DNA from: Naegleria gruberi
Taxonomy: Eukaryota
DNA length: 64,000 nucleotides
Assembly (NCBI GenBank): GCA_000004985.1
Contig: GG738894.1
Direction: 5' to 3' (one strand)
Below, piece by piece: positions 15,001-63,300 of this stretch. Made by a program: the position numbers and the translations under genes. Positions within the stretch are counted from its first letter, which is position 1. Every line of letters starts with the position of its first letter. The notes under the pieces are model-generated. The model was not told the DNA's origin, ran no database searches, and saw only the letters and a program-made list of their open reading frames with translations.

Positions 15001-16943
15001 NNNNNNNNNNNNNNNNNNNNNNNNNNNNNNNNNNNNNNNNNNNNNNNNNNNNNNNNNNNNNNNNNNNNNNNNNNNNNNNNNNNNNNNNNNNNNNNNNNNN
15101 NNNNNNNNNNNNNNNNNNNNNNNNNNNNNNNNNNNNNNNNNNNNNNNNNNNNNNNNNNNNNNNNNNNNNNNNNNNNNNNNNNNNNNNNNNNNNNNNNNNN
15201 NNNNNNNNNNNNNNNNNNNNNNNNNNNNNNNNNNNNNNNNNNNNNNNNNNNNNNNNNNNNNNNNNNNNNNNNNNNNNNNNNNNNNNNNNNNNNNNNNNNN
15301 NNNNNNNNNNNNNNNNNNNNNNNNNNNNNNNNNNNNNNNNNNNNNNNNNNNNNNNNNNNNNNNNNNNNNNNNNNNNNNNNNNNNNNNNNNNNNNNNNNNN
15401 NNNNNNNNNNNNNNNNNNNNNNNNNNNNNNNNNNNNNNNNNNNNNNNNNNNNNNNNNNNNNNNNNNNNNNNNNNNNNNNNNNNNNNNNNNNNNNNNNNNN
15501 NNNNNNNNNNNNNNNNNNNNNNNNNNNNNNNNNNNNNNNNNNNNNNNNNNNNNNNNNNNNNNNNNNNNNNNNNNNNNNNNNNNNNNNNNNNNNNNNNNNN
15601 NNNNNNNNNNNNNNNNNNNNNNNNNNNNNNNNNNNNNNNNNNNNNNNNNNNNNNNNNNNNNNNNNNNNNNNNNNNNNNNNNNNNNNNNNNNNNNNNNNNN
15701 NNNNNNNNNNNNNNNNNNNNNNNNNNNNNNNNNNNNNNNNNNNNNNNNNNNNNNNNNNNNNNNNNNNNNNNNNNNNNNNNNNNNNNNNNNNNNNNNNNNN
15801 NNNNNNNNNNNNNNNNNNNNNNNNNNNNNNNNNNNNNNNNNNNNNNNNNNNNNNNNNNNNNNNNNNNNNNNNNNNNNNNNNNNNNNNNNNNNNNNNNNNN
15901 NNNNNNNNNNNNNNNNNNNNNNNNNNNNNNNNNNNNNNNNNNNNNNNNNNNNNNNNNNNNNNNNNNNNNNNNNNNNNNNNNNNNNNNNNNNNNNNNNNNN
16001 NNNNNNNNNNNNNNNNNNNNNNNNNNNNNNNNNNNNNNNNNNNNNNNNNNNNNNNNNNNNNNNNNNNNNNNNNNNNNNNNNNNNNNNNNNNNNNNNNNNN
16101 NNNNNNNNNNNNNNNNNNNNNNNNNNNNNNNNNNNNNNNNNNNNNNNNNNNNNNNNNNNNNNNNNNNNNNNNNNNNNNNNNNNNNNNNNNNNNNNNNNNN
16201 NNNNNNNNNNNNNNNNNNNNNNNNNNNNNNNNNNNNNNNNNNNNNNNNNNNNNNNNNNNNNNNNNNNNNNNNNNNNNNNNNNNNNNNNNNNNNNNNNNNN
16301 NNNNNNNNNNNNNNNNNNNNNNNNNNNNNNNNNNNNNNNNNNNNNNNNNNNNNNNNNNNNNNNNNNNNNNNNNNNNNNNNNNNNNNNNNNNNNNNNNNNN
16401 NNNNNNNNNNNNNNNNNNNNNNNNNNNNNNNNNNNNNNNNNNNNNNNNNNNNNNNNNNNNNNNNNNNNNNNNNNNNNNNNNNNNNNNNNNNNNNNNNNNN
16501 NNNNNNNNNNNNNNNNNNNNNNNNNNNNNNNNNNNNNNNNNNNNNNNNNNNNNNNNNNNNNNNNNNNNNNNNNNNNNNNNNNNNNNNNNNNNNNNNNNNN
16601 NNNNNNNNNNNNNNNNNNNNNNNNNNNNNNNNNNNNNNNNNNNNNNNNNNNNNNNNNNNNNNNNNNNNNNNNNNNNNNNNNNNNNNNNNNNNNNNNNNNN
16701 NNNNNNNNNNNNNNNNNNNNNNNNNNNNNNNNNNNNNNNNNNNNNNNNNNNNNNNNNNNNNNNNNNNNNNNNNNNNNNNNNNNNNNNNNNNNNNNNNNNN
16801 NNNNNNNNNNNNNNNNNNNNNNNNNNNNNNNNNNNNNNNNNNNNNNNNNNNNNNNNNNNNNNNNNNNNNNNNNNNNNNNNNNNNNNNNNNNNNNNNNNNN
16901 NNNNNNNNNNNNNNNNNNNNNNNNNNNNNNNNNNNNNNNNNNN
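1..16943. other. assembly gap (run of N)
   Basis: 16,943 consecutive n characters; no sequence information. Confidence 0.99.
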
Positions 16944-25896: not shown

Positions 25897-27006
25897 TTAT
25901 TCACATGATGTTTCATCCTCTGGATTGTAAGAGAATTCTTTTGCAAATGATTTAGCAGATTTGTAATTCACATGTTCACTTGTTTTATCTTTCCCCCAAT
26001 AGATTTTATCTTTAAAGGTATTGTTATGCAACTGATATTCCAATAAATACTTACTGCATCCAGAACATCTAAAGAAATTATTGTAAGTTTTGTAAACACT
26101 TGGGAAAACTTCATCCTTAATTGATTCCTTGTCAATACTAACAATATGGTGATTACATTGAATGCATATTGTAAATATTCGATCCTCCTCAAATTCAATC
26201 TTGAAGAATTTCACAGTTTCATTGATCATTTCTTTAGAACTTCTACTCTTTACAAAATAGTAAATATAGTCGAATTCTTCAGTAGTTTCTTCTTCCTCTT
26301 CATCTTCCTCTTCACTGCTATATTCCTCAAATTCCTCGAAATCTTCTCTATTAAATTCCAATCCTTGTTCCTTGTAAATCAATTCCAATTCTTTCATTTC
26401 TCTTTCATGATCTTCAGAAACAACTGTCTCTTTCGTTGAAGGTTTTCGATTCTTTTTCATCTCCTTCTTCTTTTGATTTCTCAAATCCATAGCTTTTCGT
26501 TGGTAACCAAGTTGATTAATTAGAGTTCTATTCTTTGTCAAAATAATCCTATTCTGAGTTCTGGCAATGTACAACATGTAATTAGTAGTCATGGATGAAT
26601 CATAAAAACAGTTTCCTCCCAACATTCTAATATGTTTGGCCAATCTTCCCAAAGTTGCATCACAAACAAAAGCCAAATCAATTCCTTTCTTTTGTAAAAC
26701 ACGATCAGGAACATAATACTCATCAAACTTGAGAGGTTTCTTCCTCTTTTTTGTTTTTGCTTCCTTTCCGATATTTTCCTTCTTCTTTTCGTCATCTATA
26801 TTTTCGGAATCATTCTCAACATCTATATTATCGTCATCATTATGATGAATATTATTACAATGGTCATCGTCATCATCATTAATACCACCATTAGATGAAT
26901 TGGTTATTGAATTCTCTAATACAACAACATCTTCCTCTTTCTGGTGATGAGCGTCGTTACTACTTGAAGAATTGGTGCTGGTTTGTGGTAATTGCACTTT
27001 CGACAT
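25897..27006 (-). CDS. Mut7-C (DUF82) PIN-like nuclease-domain protein with C-terminal zinc ribbon and acidic N-terminal/central regions
   Basis: True ATG at 27006. GIDLAFVCDATLGRLAKHIRMLGGNCFY...NRIILTKNRTL matches the Mut7-C core (F[LV].D.MLGRLA[KR]WLR.LG.D). C-terminal CIQCNHH...FFRCSGCSKY is the zinc ribbon typical of this domain. D/E-rich low-complexity stretches. Confidence 0.55.
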   Translation of the reverse strand: MSKVQLPQTSTNSSSSNDAHHQKEEDVVVLENSITNSSNGGINDDDDDHCNNIHHNDDDNIDVENDSENIDDEKKKENIGKEAKTKKRKKPLKFDEYYVPDRVLQKKGIDLAFVCDATLGRLAKHIRMLGGNCFYDSSMTTNYMLYIARTQNRIILTKNRTLINQLGYQRKAMDLRNQKKKEMKKNRKPSTKETVVSEDHEREMKELELIYKEQGLEFNREDFEEFEEYSSEEEDEEEEETTEEFDYIYYFVKSRSSKEMINETVKFFKIEFEEDRIFTICIQCNHHIVSIDKESIKDEVFPSVYKTYNNFFRCSGCSKYLLEYQLHNNTFKDKIYWGKDKTSEHVNYKSAKSFAKEFSYNPEDETSCE

Positions 27007-38704: not shown

Positions 38705-38961
38705 TTTTTAATTTGACTAATTTACAAAAAAGGAATTTGTAAAAACGTCGTTATGTGTATTGAAAATGTTAATATTCTTCAATATTCCAATTAAATACTC
38801 GGTCATTCTTATTTTCGAATGTAATTATCTGAAACTTTTCTATCTACTCTGTTTACAACAATATGAACTTTGCTTTTCTTCATTTTCCATCTGGAACTTT
38901 GAAAAAAACATTTTTAAAATTAAATTGCTTTGAGGATCCTCAATTTGAACTTTGAAAAAAA

Positions 38962-39743
38962 ATGAGCAAAAACAAAGCTAACAATAATTCTAACAAATCT
39001 ACTGCACAAATTGTGGATAACAAATTGGACATGTCGAGTGTGAAACGTTATGTACCAAAGCAAAGATCTGCAATGGCAGGACTTAAGGAGACAGTTCAGA
39101 ATAATTCGGAGAATGGAGTGGTGACATTGGCAGGTAATAAGTTTAAAACACCCAAGTCAGTATTGTGTTTTATTCCACCAGTTGAAGTTTGGGAACCAAT
39201 TCAAGAAATTAGAAATAAGTATGCAAATGTTGCAAGATGGGTAAGTTGCTAATTTGACATGTTTTGATGATTATTGACATTCAATAGCCACAACCACACA
39301 TTTGTTTATTGTACCCTTTCGTTCCGAGTGAATTATTTGATGAAGCTGAAACTCTTTTGAAACCATCTCTTTCAAAAATCAAACCATTTGAAGTGACTCT
39401 TTCAAAATTTTCATATTTTAATACAATTGACCATTTGACAACTAAAGGACAAGGAACAATTCACTTTGAACCAGATAAGGACAGTTATGAGAAGATGAAA
39501 ATTGTACAAAAAACATGCTTTGATTTATTCCCATATTGTAATGCCTTAACAAAGAGAGGATCTTTCAGACCTCATTTAAGTGTTGGAGTTTTTGACATTG
39601 ACACTCTGGATGAAACAATGAAACAATTCAAGAGTGAATGGAAGGATTTGACATTTACATTGGATCATGTTTGTTTGATGAGTAGAGTGGATAATGAATC
39701 ACCATTTGTTATTTCACATAGAATTCCATTCGAAGGAAAATAA
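38962..39743 (+). CDS. 2H phosphoesterase superfamily protein (LigT / 2',5'-RNA-ligase / cyclic phosphodiesterase-like), two exons 38962..39240 and 39288..39743
   Basis: ORF 38962-39252 ends ..ARW followed by GTAAGT (39241). The acceptor CAATAG (39282-39287) rejoins the frame of ORF 39309-39743, whose listed start is TTG. Spliced product has a first motif P-H-I-C-L (H-x-C-x instead of the usual H-x-T/S-x) and a second canonical motif P-H-L-S-V-G. Overall size (~244 aa) fits this fold. Confidence 0.5.
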
Positions 39744-39897
39744 CTTGGTGGAATTTCATCAACTTTCGTTTGATAAATAGATTGCCAATTCGTTTTTGAA
39801 AAGGGTGGAATAACATTGTTGCTTGGCATTTAACATGCTACTAGTTCATCAATAAACTCTACTCTTTTTTTGATAAACCATAGCTTTCACCACTTAC

Positions 39898-41043
39898 TTA
39901 ATCATCCAATATTCCTATTGGTTTCATGGATGCTTGATAGTAATCCCAATCTTCATGATTATTTCTATCATGATGATTCTTTTGACAACAATTCTTCCAA
40001 CATTGAACACAAGAGAGGGCAATATTCTTTCCCTCTATTGGATTTGAAAAGTAAATTAAAACATTAAAGAAACCAACCAGTGGTGAAATAATTGTGTGAA
40101 TTAAACTCATGTAATTGGAATAATCTGTATCAGTAATGAAAAAGTTTGAAATTCTGTGAAAGGTTGGGATTATATAAATGAGAACCATCATGATTGGATA
40201 TCCCATCAATTTAGAATAGGCCTTAATTCTCTTTCCTTTTCTGTGATCATCATCTCCGATAGTACTCATACCAACTTTGAGTATAAACAATGATAAATTA
40301 ACTTCAATTATTGAAATACTACTTACCCTTTCCGAAATTCCTGCACACCTTCGCCAACACAATCATATACAACACCAAAACAAGTATAATTGAAATCCAG
40401 AGAGGTCCATAAAAAGCACCATAAGTCCAAGTAACTCCCATTGGTTTGTTCTGATCTATCCAACACCACTTTCCAGAATTTCCATAAGTACTTCCAATGA
40501 AAGGTAATCCAGTTAATAAACCAGAAACAAGAAAGACAATTGTGATGGAACAACCTTCAAATAAAAGTACTGATTTCTTCCTTGTTAATTTCCTTAGCAC
40601 AATGGATGAGAAGAGAAAGATGGCAATTACAACACTCCAAATGAAGAACCCTACAGAGAAGAATCTGTATCAATATTCAGCCATGATTATTTCATCACCA
40701 TCATCACATGGTAAATTAATTATGATCAAATCATCCAAGATATTCCTTAGTAAATAATAAGAAGAAATAACAACACTTACTGATTACAAACAGCCTGAAA
40801 TATACACACCCAATCTTGATCCGTCTTGTAGGCTGTATAGAGTGTTAGCAAGTGATTCAATGAAGCAAATAAGAGAAAGGTTTGCAAATAGGACAAGAAC
40901 CTCACTGATGGAAGCTTAAAAAACCTCCTCCGAAACACCACAATCACATAAATCAAGAATGAAAAACATGCAAGAGCACTCAGAAAGCCAGAGCATGCTC
41001 TCGCAAGTGCAATTGCTGTTTTCCACATATCTGGCGTCATCAT
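39898..41043 (-). CDS. seven-transmembrane GPCR, cAMP-receptor-like (Dicty_CAR-type) family; three exons 41043..40781, 40664..40327, 40274..39898
   Basis: Three track ORFs, each hydrophobic/TM-rich, chain through a GTAAGT donor (40780) and a GTAAGT donor (40326) with in-frame AG acceptors. Phases are consistent and the total is 326 codons. GNSGKWCWID motif in an extracellular loop is characteristic of the cAMP receptor-like family. The first acceptor is ambiguous: 40665/40666 (116-nt intron) or 40635/40636. Confidence 0.5.
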
Positions 41044-41499
41044 ATTTTCTTTTTTTCTTCCAATAACAAGATTTACTCTGTTGCTCTCCGAACTGTAATG
41101 ATGAAGATATTATATCAGATTGAATGATAATCTCGCTGGACTAGTACGATAATTATAGACGAGAGCAAACAAAGGGATACTTACTCCTCTCTTTAATATA
41201 ATCTTGTTATTTATTGTTGGTTGTTCTTCACTTTAAATAACATAAAGTCTTCAGGGTTGGTATCAGTCAACATTTAACAACATCAAAACCAATAAATGAT
41301 GAAGATTATTACTTCTGTCAATTACCGATTAATGATGAAGAAGTGGTAAAACCCCCATGATGAGTATTCCGTGTTTTAATTGTTTAATGTAAATTACATG
41401 TTGGTGATGCTGTTGACTGGAGAGGTGTGAATTAGCCAAACATTTTATTTTTTTTAAATTTTAAAATCATTATTCTTATTTGTAACGACTTGTTTAATA

Positions 41500-42708
41500 T
41501 TATTGTAAATGGCATGACTTTTTTTGTTTTTTCTTAAAAGCAGGATCATTCCACATATTGATACCTCTGACCATCACTTGGTGAAGGTCAGCCATTCCAC
41601 TATTGTTAATAGCACCTACTTCAACATAGGTGAAACATCCCATTCTTCTGGCCAGCAGTATTCCTTGCTCAGTACTTGATGGTTTTCTATGTCTCTTAAC
41701 CAGTAGCTCCCTTCTCTTGATTGGATCATCCCTTAAATCAGTTTTGGTACAAATCAGAATAATTAGACTATTTGGATGGAGGCGATTGATTTCAACAATC
41801 CATTTCGAATAAACGTTACGAAGGGAGGTCTCTAATGAACAGCTAAAGCAAATACAGAACATGTCAGTCCCAGGGTAAATATATCTGCGCAATCTTCAAT
41901 GTTTTGTTATAATAATTTAAAATCAATTGACTATTTGATAATTACCTATCGAATTCTGTAAATCATTCAATGAAGAGAATATTCTTAATTGACTTACCAT
42001 AATGTCCTTCAGAATCATGTAATTCCAAATGACAAACTCTTTCATCGACCAAACAATTCTTTGAGTAATTGTCAGATGAAGTTGTTGGTAAATGTTCATA
42101 TTGTGGAAACGAATCTGTACTAAACGTGTACAATAAACTGGTCTTACCAACAGTGTCATCTCCTTAATTCCCAATAATTTAATGAAAATAATTGAAAATA
42201 TTTCACACATACCCACTAGAACTATTTTGTAATGACTTGAAGTTACATTACTATTCAATTTGTAGTTTAGTATATCTTCCTTAGGTACATAAATATCATT
42301 CCACGCATAATAACCTTCAATTTCTCTCGTCAGCTCTTGCTGTTCTCTTTCTGCATTAATCATCCACTCTCCAACTAATTCAATCAAATGTTGCTTGTAA
42401 TTTTCAGTATATTCCACATGTTTAGTATAAAGTTCAGATTGTAAAATCACAACATCATATGTTCCTGTTGTCTTATTCCATCGGTTGGTCTTACTGGCCT
42501 CCGAAAACCAATGAATCCTCTCCATGTAATAATCTTTCCAATATTGATCTTCTGTTGTCAGTTGACATATTCTCAATTGTTTAGAAGCTAATTGTAATTT
42601 ACACAAATCTGTAATTTGCAGGAAGGAAAGAACCAATCGGAAAATGTCATCATTCAGCACAGAATTATTAATGTTGAATTCCGACTGTTTCTGTTTTTTA
42701 TGTATCAT
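41500..42708 (-). CDS. F-box-like domain fused to an atypical Rho-family small GTPase with polybasic tail and CAAX box; at least three exons (42708..42213, 42162..~41998, ~41893..41500)
   Basis: ORF 41923-42729 (track start GTG; first ATG 42708, MIHKK..) has the F-box-like LNDDIFRLVLSFLQITDLCKLQLASKQLRI. About 120 aa later it ends ..SSHYKIVLVG at a GTATGT donor (50-nt intron). It continues in frame as DDTVGKTSLLYTFSTDSFPQYEHLPTTSSDNY..LELHDSEGHY (G1 P-loop, switch regions). A GTAAGT donor at 41997 leads to exon 3 (ORF 41500-41892): RRYIYPGTDMFCICFS..WIVEINRLHPNSLIILICTKTDLRDD..FKKKQKKSCHLQ, with G4 TKTD, a polybasic tail and CAAX CHLQ. The exon 2/3 junction phase is ambiguous. An alternative weak donor AA|GTCAAT at 41994 gives a frame-consistent 353-codon model. 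Confidence 0.55.
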
Positions 42709-44080: not shown

Positions 44081-45754
44081 TTATTGATTGGATTCCTTGT
44101 AGGATTGAGCTACTAACTTCATTAGTTCTTTTCGATCGAGATGTGGATTCTTATCTTTTAGTTTCTTGTAATTTTCCTTCATAAATAAATTATACTTGGT
44201 TGGTTGCTTGGTTTTTCCAATTGGTTCCAATATTCCAGTGCAAACTCCACACCTTTGTTTTGTGGTATCAACAGATTTGGAATGTCTCTTTACAATTGAT
44301 CCACAATCCGTGCATTGCCACTGATATTTATATTCAATATCGTATGAGTGGCAAGTCGTGATTGGAATGTCAGGATAGTATTTCTGAATAATTCCACCAT
44401 ATAAATAAAATGTTTTACCATGGCCTGTAATGCCGTCGAACATAAATGAAGCAGCATGACACATTTCGTGAGCTAGTGTATGAACAAGTCTCTCTTCACA
44501 ATCACAAACCTTTGTGGACATTTCAATGGCACATACCTTGATTTGTGATTTAGTGATTGTAAAGAGTTTACACAACCCAGCAGTTTTCCTCAAATGTTGA
44601 TTCCATAATAAATATGCTTTCCCTTTCAGATCTTTAGCCTTACCCTTTGTAACTTTCATAGCTGGAAGTTTGTTTTGGAAGCATACCTTGTTGAATTCGT
44701 CATAATATTTCTGTAATAAATCATCTCTGACCTTTTTGAATTTTTTGGCATCCATCTTTTCAAAAGTTAATGTCTTTGAATTTTTGGAACTTTTTGCTGG
44801 CTTTTTGTTAGTTAATATGGATTTTTCATGGAAATCATCATCATCGTCATCAATTTCAATAACATTGGTATCAATCTTGTTTTTTGGGTTGGATTTTGTT
44901 TTCGTTTTGGATTTCTTAATTTGTGGACTTTCTGCTTCCATTTCGTCATAGTCCTCATCATCGTCATCATCCTCTCCACTACTTTCAGCATATTCCTCAT
45001 CACTCTCCTCGTCAAAGTTGAAATCCTCTTCATCAGATGATATTGCTTCCTCCTCCTCCTCCTCAGAAGAATCACTCAGCTCAAAAGCATTCTTTTTCTT
45101 TTCCTCCTCCTCAAATTCCTCAATAATATCCTGCCCCACAATATCAGATTCTTTCACCCAAGTATTTTCACTACTTGGATATCCCTCCCATTTCACATAG
45201 TATTCAACAAGCTTATTTTTCACTCGTTTTTTAATGATCCTTTCAATGGAATAAACATCATCTTTCTCCTTATCCTTCTCAAAATCATATTCTTCCTCAG
45301 AATCTGAATGATCCTCAATCACTCGCTTTCCAAATGATTTTCTCGATTTTCTTCTCACTGGCGAAGTGTTTGCCATCTCTTCATCACTTTCATCATCATC
45401 ATCGGAAATAGCAATCACAACTCTTTCATTAAATTCATTTCCAGATTTTCCGTGATGGTGATGATCAGCAGCTTCTTGAGTGGCTAATAGTGGTGGTAAT
45501 GTTGCTTGCTCCTCCTGGAAATGTACAGTACTTCTTCTTGGTAATTCCTGCTCTTCTTCCTTCTTTAATAGTGCAATTGGTTGCTCAGGAAGAGTGTTAT
45601 CACTTTCGGAAAGGAGACCTTTTGGAAGAATCGTCTCTGGATTCGAAAAGAAATCATGCCAAGTAATTGAACGCCATCCAAATTCGTTACACATGTTCAA
45701 GTATCGATTACGAGTTACTTCATATGAAAATTCTTGTTCTTGATAAATATTCAT
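44081..45754 (-). CDS. SprT-like zinc metalloprotease of the GCNA/ACRC type (acidic disordered region, SprT HExxH domain, zinc finger, C-terminal HMG box) with an embedded chromodomain
   Basis: True ATG at 45754. Long D/E-rich tracts. Chromodomain DDVYSIERIIKKRVKNKLVEYYVKWEGYPSSENTWVKESDI. SprT motif LVHTLAHEMCHAASFMFDG (HEMCH). Cys cluster CTDCGSIVKRHSK...CGVC. HMG-box-like PTKYNLFMKENYKKLKDKNPHLDRKELMKLVAQSYK at the C-terminus. Confidence 0.7.
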   Translation of the reverse strand: MNIYQEQEFSYEVTRNRYLNMCNEFGWRSITWHDFFSNPETILPKGLLSESDNTLPEQPIALLKKEEEQELPRRSTVHFQEEQATLPPLLATQEAADHHHHGKSGNEFNERVVIAISDDDDESDEEMANTSPVRRKSRKSFGKRVIEDHSDSEEEYDFEKDKEKDDVYSIERIIKKRVKNKLVEYYVKWEGYPSSENTWVKESDIVGQDIIEEFEEEEKKKNAFELSDSSEEEEEEAISSDEEDFNFDEESDEEYAESSGEDDDDDEDYDEMEAESPQIKKSKTKTKSNPKNKIDTNVIEIDDDDDDFHEKSILTNKKPAKSSKNSKTLTFEKMDAKKFKKVRDDLLQKYYDEFNKVCFQNKLPAMKVTKGKAKDLKGKAYLLWNQHLRKTAGLCKLFTITKSQIKVCAIEMSTKVCDCEERLVHTLAHEMCHAASFMFDGITGHGKTFYLYGGIIQKYYPDIPITTCHSYDIEYKYQWQCTDCGSIVKRHSKSVDTTKQRCGVCTGILEPIGKTKQPTKYNLFMKENYKKLKDKNPHLDRKELMKLVAQSYKESNQ

Positions 45755-47241: not shown

Positions 47242-47291
47242 NNNNNNNNNNNNNNNNNNNNNNNNNNNNNNNNNNNNNNNNNNNNNNNNNN
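47242..47291. other. scaffold gap (50 N)
   Basis: Run of 50 n immediately 3' of the phospholipase-B-like gene stop codon. Confidence 0.99.
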
Positions 47292-47293
47292 GT

Positions 47294-49002
47294 TTATTCC
47301 ACATGGCTGAACTTGGCAGGGCATTGACCATTCCAAACAAAGACTGGTTGATCAACACTGGTTGGTCCATTGATAATGTGAACAGTGTTAATGTCGAGAA
47401 TTGAAGAAACCTTAGTATCATAACCTCCACTGCAGCTTCTTGTAGCATCAGTAGCAGTTGGAGACAAATCATTTCTGCTCGAAATGGAATAGCCAGGTTG
47501 ACCAAGAGAAAGTGGATCATACTTCCAATTGTTATATCTAAGAAGATTCTTAATAGTATCAATTGAGTTGACCTTATTTTGATCTCTTCTAAAAATGTTA
47601 GCTCTAACACATGTTTCATAGGACAACATGTCTGAGGCATTTGGTCTCTTTAAGATTTCAGGATATCCAGAAATTGTGAAAACTTCCTTATAGAATGGAA
47701 CATTGTAACTAGGCCAGTATCCATAGCTGAGAATTTGAGTTTGATCAGCACCAATAACCTTTCCTGGAATTTGCTCAACAACCCAAAACAAGTCATTGGC
47801 AAGTGGTTGGCCAGGAACGAACTTTTTAGTATCCAAAACCATGAATTGATTATTGTAAGTACCAGAGTTATATTCAGAAAAGATTTTACTCCATGAAGGA
47901 GCATCATCAGCAAGTCTGTTGGCTAAAATAACTCTTTGCCAACACAACAATGATTCTGGTTTGAGTAAATCATATAAGGAAGTGTTGAAAATATTGTTGG
48001 AAGTCTCAATAACAACTAATCCATTTTGAGTAATGTAAAAATCATCATTTGAAGCAAGTGTAGCTGGGTAACCAGAGAATGTGACCTTTGGTGAAGCAAC
48101 CAATTTGTTATTGAAATTGAAAGTGTAAGTCTTATAGATACGACTGAAATTTTCAATGATATAATGATAATGGTTAGAAAACAAACTTACGTCATAGCTG
48201 CAAACACGAACCACGAATTATGTCCAAAGTAGATATTACTGAAATCTGGTGCGACCTTGAAGATGGCAGAGCAGTGACCATTGTCTCTGGCGAATTGTAA
48301 AATTTGAGCTGAGGTCATCTTGTTAAAATTTGGTCTGAAATCCTTCTTAACATTGACAATATCAAACAAGTCACCAGAAGCACTCATTACTTGCAATTCA
48401 GCATAACTAATTTTTTCTGAACTATTTGTAGTGGCATAATTGTAACCATCAAGCAAACCCTCCATTTGCAAATAAACAGTTCTGACCTGTTGCCAGAACG
48501 GATCGTTGGCATACTTGGCAGATGAATCTCTAACCCAAGCACGTTGAGACTCCAAGAAATCTCTCACATATTGTGGCATCTTCTTATCAGGATTCTCAGC
48601 CCACACATACGTATTCAAATTAACAAAGTGATTGTAAATTCTCTTCCTTGTCAAGACTCCTTCCAAATAACCGGCAGCATAACTTTGCAATTCATCCTTT
48701 ATCAATCCATTGGTTTCAATAGAGAGAACATCCCATCCTTTTGCCTCATAACTATCATCATAATGTGCTGCAGCAATACCCGATCGCAGATTATAAACTC
48801 CATTCCTAACTATGTAATTCCCATTTTCATAGTAAAAGGTGGCATCGAGAGCCAAAACCTTGTTGGAGGCTTCATTTAAAACACCACAAACAATCAAGAG
48901 TCCGAGGATAAGTAAAAGAAGTGGTGATTTGTTCATTTTTTTTTTATCAAGACTATTAATGTGAACCTTACGGAGATGTAAGCTATAGAATGGAATTTTC
49001 AT
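47294..49002 (-). CDS. phospholipase B-like protein (PLBD/LAMA family), two exons 49002..48191 and 48143..47294; probable signal-peptide start at ATG 48936
   Basis: Family-typical segments GWDVLSIETN, YAAGYLEGVLT, IYNHFVN. ORF 48187-49002 ends ..FAAMT at GTAAGT (48190). A 47-nt intron and acceptor TTTCAG rejoin the frame of ORF 47294-48214 (..RIYKTYTFNFNN..). 812+850 nt = 554 codons. MNKSPLLLLILGLLIVCG looks like the signal peptide. The stop lies 3 nt from a 50-N gap. Confidence 0.7.
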
Positions 49003-55890: not shown

Positions 55891-57483
55891 TCACTCAAAC
55901 ACATTAGAAGGGTTAGTTTTCAACTCGTGCCAAAGCTTGTACTCGTCAGTGTAAATGAATCTGGAGAACGAATCAACTAGGTTCGTATATAAATCTCTCT
56001 TAATTTCATGTAATAAATGCTTGCTGGTATCAAGATTAATGGTACCACTCTTTCTTTCAGTATCTACCAATTTCTTTGTTTTTCCTCTAATGTTAATTTC
56101 TTCTGAGCAACCATCATCAAGGAATTTATCATAGACCATGTTAATCACCTTGCTTCTTCTTTTTCCTGACATGTCAATAAAATTCTTTTCCATATCCAAA
56201 AGCTCTTGCCAACAATTCAAATTCTCGACTGAAAACTCTGCAACACAAAAGTCTTTGAATAATTGAAATCCCATAGCATCTCGTAAAAGTAGCTCCAACT
56301 CGTTTGTCATTATTGAAGGAGCAGAGGCTGAACGTTCCAAATTCTTTCTATCAGATGGTGTTTTACCATGATCTGAAGAGGGAATTTCCACATGACTATG
56401 AGATTGAGTCTTAATGACTGTTCTAGTCTTTGAAAATGATTTGTTGAGAATGTTGGCAATCTTTTTCTTTTCATCCAATTCAGCAGCAATAGTTGTATCA
56501 GTATCTGTATCAGCTCCTGCTCTTGTTGCTGAAGATGAAGAGTCTGAAGTTGCTGCACTCGTAATTGAATGAACTCTAGGTCTGTGTTGTGGAAGTTGTG
56601 TTGATGATGAAGGAGAAAGATCCACAATTGGTGTATTCACATTTTGCATTGAAATAAACTCCTCACTATCGGTAACTCTTCTTCCAAATTCCTCTTCCCC
56701 TTTCATTTCTGCCTCATCGATAGTATTTCTTCTGTGAAGCATAAAGAAGGCCTTGAGCACATTCTTCTTCTTTAAGAGAGAAAGCTTGGGCGTTGAAAGT
56801 GATCGTCTGTAGCCTGAATTTTCTTGTAACCTAGCAATTTGTTGTTGAGTGGAAGGAGGAAGGGATTGTCTGGACTTGAGATTGGATGATTCGTTAGTAG
56901 TTGAGATTGTGGTAGTATTATTTATAGTGGTGGTATGAATGGTAGTGTTGTTGTTGGTAGTGGAGGCTCTAGATTGTGTTGGGTTTGAAATTTGCATGAC
57001 TGTGTTAATGTTGGTTGGAATATCTGAAATATGAATACTAGTACTGAGCGCAGTCCTAGAGTTTCTAACACTCGTCGTTGTGCTGGTCAGTGAGGTCATG
57101 TCACTATCAACATGGTGCAATGGAAAAACGTTGAAAGATGTATTCATGGATGAGGAGAGGAGTACGGGAGAAGATGGTGTTTGTTGTTGATTGTTATTTG
57201 AACAATGTGATGAAGAGGCAGCTCCAATTCCAACAAGAGCATGCGATGCAGCAAACACTACATCACTTGGAGGTTGTTGCTCTTGATTATTAGGTGTAGA
57301 GATGGCATTATTCGAAACTTGATGATGAACATTAAAACTGGATACAGTGGTCAGAGGTGATTGATTTCTCGTTGTTGCTGTTATTGTTGGTATTGATGAT
57401 GAATTCTTAGAGGAGGATGAAATGTGCCTCTCACTCCTCCTAAATGAGAAGCGTTGTTTAGAATGAGAATTTGTATTGCCCAT
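55891..57483 (-). CDS. RGS-domain protein with N-terminal myristoylation motif and long S/T/N-rich linker
   Basis: True ATG. MGNTNS at the N-terminus (MGxxxS). C-terminal RGS domain ELLLRDAMGFQLFKDFCVAEFSVENLNCWQELLDMEKNF...VINMVYDKFL...EINI. Confidence 0.75.
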   Translation of the reverse strand: MGNTNSHSKQRFSFRRSERHISSSSKNSSSIPTITATTRNQSPLTTVSSFNVHHQVSNNAISTPNNQEQQPPSDVVFAASHALVGIGAASSSHCSNNNQQQTPSSPVLLSSSMNTSFNVFPLHHVDSDMTSLTSTTTSVRNSRTALSTSIHISDIPTNINTVMQISNPTQSRASTTNNNTTIHTTTINNTTTISTTNESSNLKSRQSLPPSTQQQIARLQENSGYRRSLSTPKLSLLKKKNVLKAFFMLHRRNTIDEAEMKGEEEFGRRVTDSEEFISMQNVNTPIVDLSPSSSTQLPQHRPRVHSITSAATSDSSSSATRAGADTDTDTTIAAELDEKKKIANILNKSFSKTRTVIKTQSHSHVEIPSSDHGKTPSDRKNLERSASAPSIMTNELELLLRDAMGFQLFKDFCVAEFSVENLNCWQELLDMEKNFIDMSGKRRSKVINMVYDKFLDDGCSEEINIRGKTKKLVDTERKSGTINLDTSKHLLHEIKRDLYTNLVDSFSRFIYTDEYKLWHELKTNPSNVFE

Positions 57484-58260: not shown

Positions 58261-61200
58261 TCAAAAACTTGGAAATTCTCTTTCCTTTGAAAGAGGAAAA
58301 CAATAAGACAAGTCCAGAAAATAATTATTCAATGGACACTCTAATAAAATAGTTTTTGAGACTTTTTCATTTCGAGATTGCTTGATACGGATAGTAAATC
58401 TTGGGCTTACAATATGTGGCATTTTCTCTTCTTGATTATTGAATAATTTGAAGCAATTCAAATTGAAAAGGCAACATGTATACACAAATGGACTTCTAAT
58501 GAGTGACTTAAATCTTTCTTCAAGATTAAACTCATTGTCGTCCTCTTCTATGTATTGATTGTAGGTATGGAAGAGCCAGTATGCTGCCTTGTGGTTGAGC
58601 TTATCCAAACTGTCTCCATCATGTTTGATAAAGACTTTCTCCCAGTTTATCTTATCTTCTTCAAGGCAATCTTTAATGCTTTCGAATAATTTCTGTTTGT
58701 GTGCTGAGAATTTATCAGAAAGGACAATCTCATCATTTTTTCTGGTTGACCAATAGAGTCTCCATTGTGAATACGCTTCCTTAAATTCATCTTTCCATCT
58801 TTGCCACTCTGAGGAGTATATTTCAGATGGGTTTTCAAAAACAGTGTCAAGTTGCTTTGTATCTGAAAAAACCATCCTATTGAATATATTTCTAATTAGG
58901 TCAAACATTCTTGCTTCGAATGTATCAAGTTCTATATGAGATTGGTCAGTAATCTTCAATTTGCAAAGTTCCATCCACTTTGGAGAATCCTTTTTTGGAA
59001 TTTCATACAACTGTTTAGCATTAAAAGCTGATCCCTTAATAGTATCAATGCTGTCGTGATACATTTTGGACAATTTAAGTTTGATATCTATTCCAACCTT
59101 GGAAGAATCTTCTCTCCAACACATTGTTTTAAGATAAACTTCTGAAATTTTTGATGATTGTTCCATCATTTCCAATACAGTTTTTCTTACATCTTCCATG
59201 CTTAGTGAATTTTTAACAGTTTTGGTCACCTTATTGGTGGCAGCTCCATCGTTATAATTCAATTTTGGTTTGAGATTTTGATCAAATAACTTGACAATTT
59301 CTGGATCGAAAATAATCTCATACAAGTCGCCATCCAAATCACCTCCTGCCATGTAGCATAATGGTTCTGGGACTTTCTTATAATTTGGATTGTGTCCAAA
59401 GACAATGACATCTCTTCTTGATTGGAGGAATTCTGTTGGGGGATGCTTGACCAACTTTAAGCATTGGATATCACCTTCATAGGCAAGAGGATTTCTATAG
59501 ACAAGAACCTTGTCAATTTTAGCATAATCTAAACTTCGAATCAACTTGGAGCATGGGATGTGAACTTCATCATGTTTCAAAGTCGAACTTTCATCATAAA
59601 CACCCATACCACTTAAAAACCCAGGATGTTTACATTTCATACTGAGCTTGTCACTAACCATGGATTCAAACTTGCTTTCAATATTGTCTTTTACAACGGA
59701 GGAAATAAAATAATTATCCAATGAATGTTCAGCCATTATTAAATCTCTAGCAATAGATTCTTGCGAAGTTTCTCCTGATTGAGAGAGGAGCACGTTGCAT
59801 AAATATTCTGGATTATCCTTATTCTCAACAATTTCCATTAATTGAGTTTCGTAAAAATTTTTGAACAATTTTTCCATTTCTTCTTCATTCGTAGTCATTT
59901 GCAGTAAGCAAGACATGATATTTCTATTAATATTGCCACCATGAACACGAGCAACATTCAATATATCAATCTTATTGTAAATTGAATAATTTCCTTCAAA
60001 TTTCACCATTGAATTTCTCAAAATGACTTTGGTATTGGATGGCAATTTGTGCTTTTTAAGTAATTCTGCCCACATTGATTTGTTAACCTTTTGAATGACT
60101 CCTTTGGCTCCCAAAATTCTTACCTGCATGGCACTGATGTTCTTGAAATTCTTTTCGAATAGTCTACCTTGTTTCGTATCTGATTCAAATAACTTGTCCA
60201 TAAAGAAATATGGAACAGAGTAGGTATTTTCCAGGACTTGTTCGAAGAAATCTTCAACAGCCATACCAGCACCATCAGTCACTGCAATATCATCTGAAAT
60301 AATTTGGATATCATCTTGTTTCCATTCCACAATACTTGGAGTACTAGTTCCCATACTCAATCCAACTCTACTAGCAACCTTTCTAGGTCCATGCTCCTCA
60401 GCTTTTTCAAAGGTACCCAACATTTGCTTCAATATTTCCAAATTCAACAATGTTGAGTTGTAAAAGATACAGGAATCACCTTTCAAACCAGAATTTGAAG
60501 TACCTAACAAACAATACTTATGACCTTCATGAACAATACCATAGGAGAGACAATATTCCTTCTTGCATTCTGAGAGTGCTTTCAGATCCTCTTTGGATGT
60601 AAAATCAAATTTTACAACCATTAAACATTTTCCCAAATTCAAACTCATTAAAATTCTTGCTAATCTTGAGAATGAATTCAAGATTGAGTAACGATTGGTT
60701 CCATCACCAATAATCGCATACTTTCCATTGTTTCCCTCCATTTTCTTCCATCTGTTTTTCACATGACAAACTAGTGGATAGAATTCACCAAAGAATTGTT
60801 CGTATCCACCAGCAACATTTGAATTGAAAAGTGATTGAAAAAGAGTTTGATTAGCTTGTGATTCAAACAGTTCCAATTCTCTGGCAAAGTATCTGTATCT
60901 CTTCATCAAGTATTCCAATGGATTCTTTGCTAAATCCATGGTGCTATCACACATATAGGAAATCTTTGCACTCAACTCTGAATATTGAACATTATCTATC
61001 TTGACAACAATCTTCCAAACATTCTTTCCAAAACCAAGAACATTCCAATCTTCCCAGCCGGTGATTGTTTGCAAATCTTCATCTCTCATTGGCAATACAA
61101 TAATCAATTTACCATTAACCNNNNNNNNNNNNNNNNNNNNNNNNNNNNNNNNNNNNNNNNNNNNNNNNNNGTTGATTGCATTAACCAATGTCTTTTGATC

Positions 61201-61407
61201 TCTCATTCCTCTCTCATGGACCAATAAAACTTGTTGAACAGTTGATGAATCACAGTTTTCCAATTTCAAATAAGTACGAATCTTTCGGAACAGAATATCC
61301 TTGATCTTCTCTGTAGCTCCAATCTTGATAGATGGAGGACCAGAAATTGTTGTGGATGGGGAAGTGTCCATCATGGAAAGGGTGAGTGGGTGGTTATTGT
61401 TGATCAT
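58261..61407 (-). CDS. cellular RNA-dependent RNA polymerase (RDR family), interrupted by a 50-N scaffold gap
   Basis: Catalytic signature CYMAGGDLDGDLYEIIFD (DLDGD) preceded by YRNPLAYEGDIQCLKLV, as in eukaryotic RdRPs of the RRF/QDE-1/RDR6 type. About 1050 aa. The ORF as listed starts at 61557, but the first plausible ATG is 61407 (MINNNHPLTLSMMDTSPS..) or MMDTSPS at ~61374. Gap 61121-61170 lies inside the N-terminal region. Confidence 0.75.
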   Translation of the reverse strand: MINNNHPLTLSMMDTSPSTTISGPPSIKIGATEKIKDILFRKIRTYLKLENCDSSTVQQVLLVHERGMRDQKTLVNAINXXXXXXXXXXXXXXXXXVNGKLIIVLPMRDEDLQTITGWEDWNVLGFGKNVWKIVVKIDNVQYSELSAKISYMCDSTMDLAKNPLEYLMKRYRYFARELELFESQANQTLFQSLFNSNVAGGYEQFFGEFYPLVCHVKNRWKKMEGNNGKYAIIGDGTNRYSILNSFSRLARILMSLNLGKCLMVVKFDFTSKEDLKALSECKKEYCLSYGIVHEGHKYCLLGTSNSGLKGDSCIFYNSTLLNLEILKQMLGTFEKAEEHGPRKVASRVGLSMGTSTPSIVEWKQDDIQIISDDIAVTDGAGMAVEDFFEQVLENTYSVPYFFMDKLFESDTKQGRLFEKNFKNISAMQVRILGAKGVIQKVNKSMWAELLKKHKLPSNTKVILRNSMVKFEGNYSIYNKIDILNVARVHGGNINRNIMSCLLQMTTNEEEMEKLFKNFYETQLMEIVENKDNPEYLCNVLLSQSGETSQESIARDLIMAEHSLDNYFISSVVKDNIESKFESMVSDKLSMKCKHPGFLSGMGVYDESSTLKHDEVHIPCSKLIRSLDYAKIDKVLVYRNPLAYEGDIQCLKLVKHPPTEFLQSRRDVIVFGHNPNYKKVPEPLCYMAGGDLDGDLYEIIFDPEIVKLFDQNLKPKLNYNDGAATNKVTKTVKNSLSMEDVRKTVLEMMEQSSKISEVYLKTMCWREDSSKVGIDIKLKLSKMYHDSIDTIKGSAFNAKQLYEIPKKDSPKWMELCKLKITDQSHIELDTFEARMFDLIRNIFNRMVFSDTKQLDTVFENPSEIYSSEWQRWKDEFKEAYSQWRLYWSTRKNDEIVLSDKFSAHKQKLFESIKDCLEEDKINWEKVFIKHDGDSLDKLNHKAAYWLFHTYNQYIEEDDNEFNLEERFKSLIRSPFVYTCCLFNLNCFKLFNNQEEKMPHIVSPRFTIRIKQSRNEKVSKTILLECPLNNYFLDLSYCFPLSKEREFPSF
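61121..61170. other. scaffold gap (50 N) inside the RdRP gene
   Basis: Run of 50 n; translated as X in the ORF track. Confidence 0.99.
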
Positions 61408-61955: not shown

Positions 61956-63300
61956 TTATTTTCTTAGTGATGTTAATTGTTTCATTTCACTTATATATTT
62001 GGCTCCTTCATCACCAATTCGATTGTTATATATTTGAAGTGATGTCAATCGTTTCATTTCACTTATGAATTTGGCTCCTTCATCACCAATTTCATTGCCA
62101 CCAATATTAAGCGATGTTAATTGTTTCATTTCACTTATATATTTGGCTCCTTCTCCACTAATTAAATTGTTAGATATACAGAGTGATGTCAATTGTTTCA
62201 GTTCACTAATAGACCTAGCTCCTTCATCACCAATTAGATTGTTATATGTATGAAGTGATGTCAATCGTTTCATTTCACTTATGAATTTGGCTCCTTCTAC
62301 ACCAATTCGATTGCTATAGTATTAAGTGATGTTAATTGTTTCATTTCACTTATCAATTTAGCTCCTTCATCACCAATTCATTGCCACCAATATTAAGCGA
62401 TGTTAATTGTTTCATTTCACTTATATATTTGGCTCCTTCATCACCAATTCGATTGTTATATATTTGAAGTGATGTCAATCGTTTCATTCCACTAATTAAT
62501 TTAGCTCCTTCATCACCAATTTCATTGACACCAATATTAAGTGATGTTAATTGTTTCATTCCACTAATTAATTTGGCTCCTTCATCACCAATTCGATTGT
62601 TATATATATGAAGTGATGTCAATCGTTTCATTCCACTAATTAATTTAGCTCCTTCATCACCAATTTGATTGCCACCAATATCAAGTGATGTTAATTGTTT
62701 CATTTCACTTATATATTTGGCTCCTTCATCACCAATTCGATTGTTATATGTATGAAGTGATGTTAATTGTTTCATTTCACTTATCAATTTAGCTCCTTTT
62801 ATACCAATTCGATTGCCACCAATATTAAGCGATGTTAATTGTTTCATTTCATTTATATATTTGGCTCCTACATCACCAATTCGATTGTTATATATATTAA
62901 GTGATGTTAATTGTTTCATTTCACTTATGAATTCTGCTCTTTCAAAAGAGTCAAGCAACCAACTAGAAAATTTAACATTAACAATACTATTCATAAATTG
63001 ACTTTTCATGAATAATTCAACTCGTTTCTCTGTAAATTTCTTTTTAAATTTAATAACAAGTTTTGAACGTTCCCTGATCACATTAAAGAATTGTTTTGAA
63101 ATTAAAGTACAATTATTTAAAATAAACCACGAATCATCAAGCATTGAAATTATTTCAAAACAAACATCATATGAAAATATTTCTTTTTCGAGTTTCACAA
63201 ACTTTGCTTTCTCTTCCATATTATTATTATTGTTAGTGAATATTTCCTCCGAATTAATGAATTGATGATTTTCAAAATCTTGTCTGTTTCGTTTGCTCAT
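61956..63300 (-). CDS. F-box-like / RNI-type leucine-rich-repeat protein encoded largely by a 72-bp tandem array; two frameshifts split it into ORFs 62353-63300 and 61956-62273
   Basis: True ATG at 63300. F-box-like FSYDVCFEIISMLDDSWFILNNCTLISKQFFNVI. Then >=17 near-identical 24-aa LRRs (LTSLNIGGNRIGDEGAKYISEMKQ). Between 62274 and 62352 two repeat copies carry 1-nt deletions relative to neighbours (e.g. caccaattcattgcc vs caccaatttcattgcc), breaking the frame. Confidence 0.5.
61960..62940. repeat. tandem array of ~13.6 copies of a 72-bp unit (coding LRR repeats)
   Basis: Unit ...tgatgttaattgtttcatttcacttatatatttggctccttcatcaccaattcgattgttatatat... recurs every 72 nt with a few substitutions per copy. 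Confidence 0.85.

What the first reader, a model, noticed from the sequence alone, without database searches (positions are those of the whole stretch)
58261..61407. RNA-dependent RNA polymerase gene (DLDGD) broken by a scaffold gap; RNAi-type machinery in the window together with a Mut7-C protein
The 1050-aa ORF has the diagnostic DLDGD catalytic loop and flanking RdRP motifs, so the organism encodes an RDR-type polymerase. The gene contains a 50-N gap (61121-61170), so its N-terminal region is incomplete and frame continuity across the gap is unverified. About 32 kb away, 25897-27006 encodes a Mut7-C (PIN-like nuclease) domain protein, a domain named after the C. elegans RNAi factor MUT-7. 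The two are not adjacent and eukaryotic genes are not operonic, so the link is only thematic.
Basis: partly seen in the sequence, partly recalled or inferred. Interest (0 to 1): 0.55.

Follow-up and report, generated by a model that had tools for sequence, protein, structure and literature searches.

The report
Annotated Naegleria RdRP gene with gap
This is an ordinary, already catalogued RNA-dependent RNA polymerase gene of the amoeba Naegleria gruberi whose start is interrupted by a 50-N assembly gap, and the Mut7-C gene 32 kb away has no demonstrable connection to it.

Summary
The window is a Naegleria gruberi nuclear scaffold. A minus-strand ORF (ATG 61407, stop 58261-58263) matches Pfam RdRP PF05183 (E 1.6e-59) and carries GGDLDGDLY at 59326-59340. 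It is interrupted by exactly 50 N (61121-61170).

The gene is already public as NAEGRDRAFT_72038 (XP_002672987.1, UniProt D2VSR9, named "RNA-dependent RNA polymerase"). That model is 942 aa and starts at the first Met after the gap, so it is N-terminally truncated. The 79 codons between ATG 61407 and the gap look coding: their codon-usage score equals that of the gene body, and the other five frames score negative. They align collinearly, though weakly, with the N-terminus of a 40%-identical paralogue. The true start is therefore probably 61407.

Reading in frame across the gap means nothing, because both internal gaps in the window are 50 N, which looks like a placeholder.

Homologues exist in N. 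fowleri, N. lovaniensis, Acrasis, Willaertia and Pharyngomonas, so this is a vertically inherited heterolobosean family.

The Mut7-C call is also right (PF01927, E 5.7e-25, minus strand, 45-nt in-frame intron). But the protein has no exonuclease domain, and its orthologues in other Naegleria species lie on different contigs from their RdRPs. The window holds no Dicer or Argonaute. Verdict: already known, low interest.

The parts
58264..61119 (-). RdRP coding sequence downstream of the gap (952 aa, no stop), followed by the stop codon at 58261-58263. Residues 11-952 are identical to the public model NAEGRDRAFT_72038.
58966..60588 (-). Stretch matching Pfam RdRP PF05183 (aa 178-718 of the 952-aa piece).
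   Evidence: E 1.6e-59; aligns to plant RDR2 (7w84, E 5.5e-8) and Neurospora QDE-1 (2j7n, E 3.8e-5).
59326..59340 (-). Catalytic loop DLDGD, within GGDLDGDLY.
   Evidence: Conserved as GGD[LFY]DGD across heterolobosean homologues. Aligned to GGDLDGDL of RDR2.
61121..61170 (.). Assembly gap of 50 N inside the N-terminal coding region. Its length is probably a placeholder.
   Evidence: The second gap in the window, 47242-47291, is also 50 N.
61171..61407 (-). Probable first 79 codons of the RdRP (MINNNHPLTLSMMDTS...VNAIN), which are absent from the public protein model.
   Evidence: Open frame. Codon-usage score 0.188 against a gene-body mean of 0.195; the other five frames score -0.15 to -0.46 and the 150 nt upstream of the ATG score -0.03. 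Only 90 of 20000 shuffles stay open. Weak collinear match to residues 1-67 of the paralogue, E 0.14. No database protein matches it.
25897..27006 (-). Stand-alone Mut7-C (PIN-like plus zinc-ribbon) gene NAEGRDRAFT_59120, with a 45-nt in-frame intron at 26010-26054. It is not functionally tied to the RdRP by any evidence found here.

Best explanation
The locus is the Naegleria gruberi nuclear gene NAEGRDRAFT_72038. It is one of at least three paralogous cellular (RDR-type, PF05183) RNA-dependent RNA polymerases in this amoeba. The coding region appears to be a single exon on the minus strand, running from ATG 61407 to the stop at 58261. A 50-N scaffold gap interrupts it about 80 codons in, and the public model was therefore cut back to the first Met after the gap. 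By inference from characterised family members (plant RDR1/2/6, Neurospora QDE-1, C. elegans EGO-1/RRF-1), the enzyme copies single-stranded RNA into double-stranded RNA. It would use the Mg2+-binding aspartates of the DLDGD loop, and the product would feed a Dicer/Argonaute small-RNA pathway. The domain, the motif and the homology are shown here. The activity and the pathway role are inferred. The Mut7-C gene 32 kb away is an unrelated neighbour.
For: Pfam RdRP scores E 1.6e-59, far above the gathering score. The DLDGD loop is intact and aligns to the catalytic loop of solved RDR2 and QDE-1. The last Asp of DLDGD is required for activity according to PMC4791657. Residues 11-952 are 100% identical to XP_002672987.1 / D2VSR9, named 'RNA-dependent RNA polymerase'. 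The sequence is 40% identical over 916 aa to the paralogue NAEGRDRAFT_64904. A full HMMER scan gives 402 homologues at E<=1e-3. The nearest are N. fowleri, N. lovaniensis, Acrasis kona, Willaertia magna and Pharyngomonas kirbyi, roughly tracking organismal relatedness as I recall heterolobosean phylogeny. The catalytic loop is conserved in all of these. The upstream 79 codons have gene-like codon usage in that frame only. The literature reports Dicer-like genes in N. gruberi (PMC4791657) and Dicer and Argonaute candidates in N. fowleri (PMC13315211).
Against: Nothing here bears on expression or activity. The content of the gap is unknown, so a frameshift, a stop or an intron there cannot be excluded. 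The match of the upstream piece to the paralogue is not statistically significant (E 0.14), and N-termini in this family are very divergent. The structure prediction was unusable (pLDDT 31.7), so the fold was not independently confirmed. RNAi has not been demonstrated experimentally in Naegleria according to PMC13315211.
Confidence: 0.9

Rival explanations
1. The gene is a pseudogene or an inactive paralogue, and the gap hides a disabling lesion. A redundant copy in a three-member family could be decaying.
For: The gap content is unknown. A third N. gruberi paralogue model, NAEGRDRAFT_47340, has a catalytic loop shortened to AGDGDAY, so degenerate copies may exist in the family.
Against: There are 952 uninterrupted codons in AT-rich DNA (about 33% GC), where stops are frequent. 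The GGDLDGDLY loop is intact. Codon usage is gene-like on both sides of the gap. The length budget against the paralogue leaves room for only about 6-8 missing residues.
Confidence: 0.05
2. The RdRP and the Mut7-C protein are functional partners in one small-RNA pathway, and their presence in one 64-kb window reflects that.
For: Both domains are associated with RNAi in C. elegans. Both genes lie on the same scaffold, 12 gene models apart.
Against: No 3'-5' exonuclease domain was detected in the Mut7-C protein. Stand-alone MUT7-C proteins are ancient and occur in prokaryotes and plants, and the RNAi recruitment function maps to a Caenorhabditis-specific insertion (PMC11347159). Linkage is not conserved in N. 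fowleri or N. lovaniensis. Ten or more unrelated genes lie between the two.
Confidence: 0.04
3. The 79-codon open frame upstream of the gap is not part of the gene. It would be 5' UTR or a chance ORF, and the true start would be the Met after the gap, as in the public model.
For: The public model starts at MRDEDLQ. The upstream piece has no database homologue. 11.7% of all 79-codon windows in this gene-dense window are open.
Against: The codon-usage score is 0.188 in that frame only, equal to the gene body, whereas the stretch upstream of the ATG scores -0.03. The frame is also open for 10 codons between the gap and that Met. The paralogue has 127 residues ahead of the first strongly aligned block and also begins M[IL]NNN. 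The 942-aa model would lack that N-terminal region.
Confidence: 0.1

Closest known systems
NAEGRDRAFT_72038 (XP_002672987.1 / EFC40243.1 / UniProt D2VSR9), Naegleria gruberi 'RNA-dependent RNA polymerase'
   Same: Identical sequence over residues 11-952 of the post-gap ORF, with the same stop codon. This is the same gene.
   Different: The public model is 942 aa and starts after the gap. The window supports about 89 further N-terminal residues (79 before the gap, 10 after it) plus whatever the gap hides.
N. gruberi paralogues NAEGRDRAFT_64904 (D2V7S1) and NAEGRDRAFT_47340 (D2V7P4), and the heterolobosean RdRPs of N. fowleri FDP41_004019 and FDP41_003380, N. lovaniensis C9374_005270 and others, Acrasis kona, Willaertia magna and Pharyngomonas kirbyi
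   Same: Same domain and the same GGDxDGD loop, with collinear alignment over about 900 aa.
   Different: Only 31-44% identical, with N-termini that cannot be aligned. NAEGRDRAFT_64904 has DFDGD. The NAEGRDRAFT_47340 model has a shortened loop.
Plant RDR2 (PDB 7w84/7w82) and Neurospora crassa QDE-1 (PDB 2j7n)
   Same: Significant sequence similarity across the catalytic region, including the DLDGD loop (E 5.5e-8 and 3.8e-5).
   Different: Very distant, with similarity detectable only over about 120-260 residues. No N-terminal RRM or other accessory Pfam domain was detected in the Naegleria protein.
C. elegans MUT-7 / human EXD3 (for the Mut7-C gene)
   Same: Shares the MUT7-C module, a PIN-like N-terminal part plus a four-Cys zinc ribbon. 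The cysteines C281, C284, C314 and C317 are invariant among the orthologues.
   Different: No 3'-5' exonuclease domain. The lineage-specific acidic insertion lies before the first Cys pair, not between the pairs as in animals (PMC11347159). The architecture is closer to the stand-alone prokaryotic and plant Mut7-C proteins.

Membership tests
Cellular RNA-dependent RNA polymerase (Pfam PF05183, RDR/QDE-1 family) | Match to the family HMM above the curated gathering score | tested here: met
   202.6 bits against a cut-off of 23.8, E 1.6e-59, covering profile positions 49-558 of 582
Cellular RNA-dependent RNA polymerase (Pfam PF05183, RDR/QDE-1 family) | Catalytic DxDGD loop with all three aspartates | tested here: met
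   GGDLDGDLY at 59326-59340; aligned to the same loop in RDR2. (PMC4791657): the last Asp is needed for activity.
Cellular RNA-dependent RNA polymerase (Pfam PF05183, RDR/QDE-1 family) | Double-psi beta-barrel catalytic fold | tested here: inconclusive
   the AlphaFold2 model from a 2-sequence alignment had mean pLDDT 31.7, so no fold comparison was attempted
Cellular RNA-dependent RNA polymerase (Pfam PF05183, RDR/QDE-1 family) | RNA-templated RNA synthesis in vitro or in vivo | not testable with these tools
   needs biochemistry
RNAi pathway component (RdRP acting with Dicer and Argonaute) | Dicer and Argonaute genes present in the same genome, and RdRP-dependent small RNAs | not testable with these tools
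   Only this window is available and no Dicer or Argonaute was found in it (20 of the 22 other ORFs of at least 180 aa scanned against Pfam). The literature lists N. gruberi Dicer-like genes and N. fowleri Dicer and AGO candidates. No small-RNA data were available.
MUT-7 / EXD3 / Nibbler exoribonuclease family | 3'-5' exonuclease (DEDDy) domain | tested here: not met
   only PF01927 is reported at E<=0.01. The N-terminal 110 aa are low-complexity sequence.
MUT-7 / EXD3 / Nibbler exoribonuclease family | C-terminal MUT7-C domain | tested here: met
   E 5.7e-25; the conserved Asp and the four zinc-ribbon Cys are invariant in the orthologues.
Stand-alone Mut7-C (PIN-like) proteins | Mut7-C as the only recognisable domain, conserved as a single-domain protein in related species | tested here: met
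   orthologues of 272-375 aa in N. fowleri, N. lovaniensis, Willaertia magna and environmental samples, all carrying PF01927 only

The most novel reading that the evidence does not exclude
The N. gruberi RdRP family has sub-functionalised: one copy with DLDGD (this gene), one with DFDGD, and one whose model has a truncated loop. In addition, the un-annotated, family-specific N-terminal region that straddles the gap would be a lineage-specific targeting module, possibly working with the conserved stand-alone Mut7-C RNA-binding protein in a heterolobosean small-RNA pathway.
Probability: 0.04. Interest if true: 0.4.

Novelty: already known. Interest (0 to 1): 0.08.

Why it matters
It matters very little beyond bookkeeping. 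The public model of NAEGRDRAFT_72038 is probably truncated at its N-terminus by an assembly gap and could be corrected once the gap is closed. For anyone planning RNAi tools in Naegleria, it is useful to know two things. N. gruberi has at least three RdRP paralogues, and homologues occur across Heterolobosea, including the pathogen N. fowleri. Neither point is surprising.

Tried and rejected
1. The word-indexed protein search returned only two N. gruberi proteins, although the same database holds N. fowleri and N. lovaniensis proteomes. I briefly suspected that RdRP is specific to N. gruberi within the genus. The exhaustive HMMER scan and the name look-ups refuted this.

2. Attempts to close or bridge the gap all failed. 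A protein search with the upstream 79 aa found nothing. Exact-match scans of metagenome contigs with the 30-mers on each side of the gap found nothing. An exact look-up of contigs encoding P0001 found nothing on record.

3. The structure prediction from the only admissible alignment (window plus paralogue) gave pLDDT 31.7. It was discarded and no fold search was run.

4. A 12-aa insertion relative to the paralogue near the N-terminus (VLGFGKNVWKIV) was considered as a read-through intron. I rejected this because it would be only 30-36 nt with a non-consensus 5' site (reading of the sequence), and the public model retains it.

5. A PDB sequence search with the Mut7-C protein gave no hit.

6. 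Pfam scans of 20 of the other 22 ORFs of at least 180 aa found no further RNAi genes. The remaining two (55891-57483 and 62353-63300) were not scanned, only read by eye.

Full report
**Observation.** The window has three N runs: 1-16943, 47242-47291 and 61121-61170. The remaining sequence is about 33% GC. The minus strand carries an ORF from 61557 (TTG) to the stop at 58261. Read from ATG 61407, it gives 79 determined residues, 17 X and then 952 determined residues. DLDGD lies at 59326-59340 in the context CYMAGGDLDGDLYEIIFDPE.

**Family assignment.** The 952-aa piece after the gap matches Pfam RdRP PF05183 at E 1.6e-59, 202.6 bits against a gathering score of 23.8, covering profile positions 49-558 of 582. 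No other Pfam domain is found. By sequence it also matches the solved plant RDR2 (7w84, E 5.5e-8) and Neurospora QDE-1 (2j7n, E 3.8e-5). In that alignment aGGDLDGDLyeiifD lines up with sGGDLDGDLffitwD of RDR2. PMC4791657 states that DLDGD is the key motif and that its last Asp is required for catalysis. The sequence-based features that define a cellular RDR-type polymerase are therefore met. The fold could not be confirmed independently, because the only alignment I was allowed to submit (window plus one paralogue) gave a useless model with pLDDT 31.7.

**Identity of the gene.** The protein is 100% identical over residues 11-952 to a 942-aa Naegleria gruberi protein. That protein is EFC40243.1 / XP_002672987.1 / NAEGRDRAFT_72038, UniProt D2VSR9, which UniRef already names 'RNA-dependent RNA polymerase'. 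The finding is therefore an already annotated gene of the published N. gruberi genome.

The public model begins at MRDEDLQ, the first Met after the gap. It was evidently trimmed because of the gap.

**Family context.**
- A paralogue, NAEGRDRAFT_64904, is 40% identical over 916 aa and has DFDGD.
- A third paralogue, NAEGRDRAFT_47340, lies on the same 602-kb scaffold as the second. Its model shows a shortened loop, AGDGDAY.
- The word-indexed search found only the two N. gruberi proteins, which briefly suggested a species-specific gene.
- The exhaustive HMMER scan found 402 homologues at E<=1e-3.
- The closest named ones are from N. fowleri (two), N. lovaniensis (several), Acrasis kona, Willaertia magna and Pharyngomonas kirbyi, followed by fungi.
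- The ranking roughly tracks organismal relatedness as I recall heterolobosean phylogeny, and the GGDxDGD loop is conserved throughout. This is a vertically inherited heterolobosean family.

**The gap and the N-terminus.** Base 61120 plus 50 N equals 51 nt, so the ORF finder reads straight through in frame. Both internal gaps in the window are exactly 50 N, which looks like a placeholder length. The apparent frame continuity therefore carries no information.

Several results indicate that the 79 codons upstream of the gap are nevertheless coding:
- The frame is open, while the other two frames on that strand are full of stops.
- Only 90 of 20000 shuffles of the segment stay open.
- I scored the segment with a codon-usage log-odds trained on eleven other long ORFs of the window. 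It scores 0.188 in that frame, against 0.195 on average (range 0.07-0.37) for the RdRP body.
- Its other five frames score -0.15 to -0.46, and the 150 nt upstream of the ATG score -0.03.
- The piece aligns collinearly with residues 1-67 of the paralogue (MINNN against MLNNN; QQVLLVHE against QQVRVKLVHE). This match alone is not significant (E 0.14), and N-termini in the family are otherwise too divergent to align.

The length budget against the paralogue suggests that only about 6-8 residues are hidden by the gap. This is a rough estimate.

I could not close the gap. The upstream peptide has no database match, 30-mers flanking the gap have no exact match in metagenome contigs, and the exact-protein contig look-up returned nothing.

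**The Mut7-C gene.** The ORF 25897-27006 is on the minus strand and matches PF01927 at E 5.7e-25. It is NAEGRDRAFT_59120, 354 aa. The 369-aa ORF reads through a 45-nt in-frame intron at 26010-26054. That intron is spliced out of the annotated N. gruberi model (NAEGRDRAFT_59120), and the corresponding 15 residues are missing from the N. fowleri, N. lovaniensis and Willaertia orthologue proteins. A conserved Asp and the four zinc-ribbon cysteines are invariant.

The protein has no 3'-5' exonuclease domain. According to PMC11347159, MUT7-C is an ancient RNA-binding module that exists as a stand-alone protein in prokaryotes and plants. That paper attributes the RNAi function of MUT-7 to its exonuclease domain and to a Caenorhabditis-specific insertion. 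A stand-alone Mut7-C protein is therefore not evidence of RNAi.

Linkage to an RdRP is also not conserved. In N. fowleri and N. lovaniensis the Mut7-C orthologue and the RdRP homologues lie on contigs of different lengths.

The genes between and around the two encode PIG-V mannosyltransferase, WD40, kinase, NHL, Kelch, 2OG-Fe oxygenase, chromo-SprT-HMG, phospholipase B, a PLP enzyme, LRR and DUF4116 proteins. None of the 20 ORFs scanned against Pfam is a Dicer or Argonaute.

**Mechanism.** By homology with characterised RDRs, the enzyme should synthesise complementary RNA on single-stranded RNA templates. It would use the Mg2+-coordinating aspartates of DLDGD and generate dsRNA for Dicer. The domain, the motif and the homology are shown here. 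The activity and the pathway role are inferred.

The literature lists Dicer-like genes in N. gruberi and Dicer and Argonaute candidates in N. fowleri. It also notes that RNAi has not yet been exploited or demonstrated in these amoebae.

**Verdict.** The thematic link between the two genes is unsupported. The gene is already annotated. The only increment is a probable N-terminal extension of the public gene model. Interest is low.

Noticed in passing
window 26010-26054 (-): A 45-nt in-frame intron (GTAAGT...AG) with no stop lies inside the Mut7-C gene. A naive ORF translation therefore inserts 15 spurious residues (SKYLLEYQLHNNTFKD instead of N).
   Followed up: yes
outside the window: N. gruberi NAEGRDRAFT_47340 (P0169): The model of the third RdRP paralogue has YLAGDGDAYEVVF where the family has GGDxDGDxY. 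The catalytic loop is two residues shorter, so this is either a degenerate or inactive copy or a mis-modelled gene. It lies on the same 602-kb scaffold as the paralogue NAEGRDRAFT_64904, about 15 gene models away by accession number.
   Followed up: partly
window 44081-45754 (-): A 557-aa protein combines Chromo, SprT-like metalloprotease, SprT zinc-ribbon and HMG-box domains. This looks like a chromatin-targeted, Spartan/Wss1-like protease architecture.
   Followed up: no
window 47242-49002 (-): A phospholipase B gene is split into two overlapping ORFs (47294-48214 and 48187-49002), through an intron or a frameshift. Its 3' end abuts the other 50-N gap (47242-47291).
   Followed up: no
window 61956-63300 (-): Two ORFs of RNI-like leucine-rich repeats (KQLTSLNIGGNRIGDEGAKYISEM...) appear to be one gene with a short intron. 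They are typical of the large Naegleria LRR expansion and lie immediately upstream of the RdRP.
   Followed up: no
window 1-16943: The first 16,943 bases of the window are all N. This is either padding or a very large scaffold gap, and only about 47 kb of the window is real sequence.
   Followed up: partly
window 38705-41922: This stretch has no ORF of at least 180 aa, yet some 79-codon windows on the minus strand reach gene-like codon-usage scores (maximum 0.188). It probably holds intron-containing or short genes.
   Followed up: no
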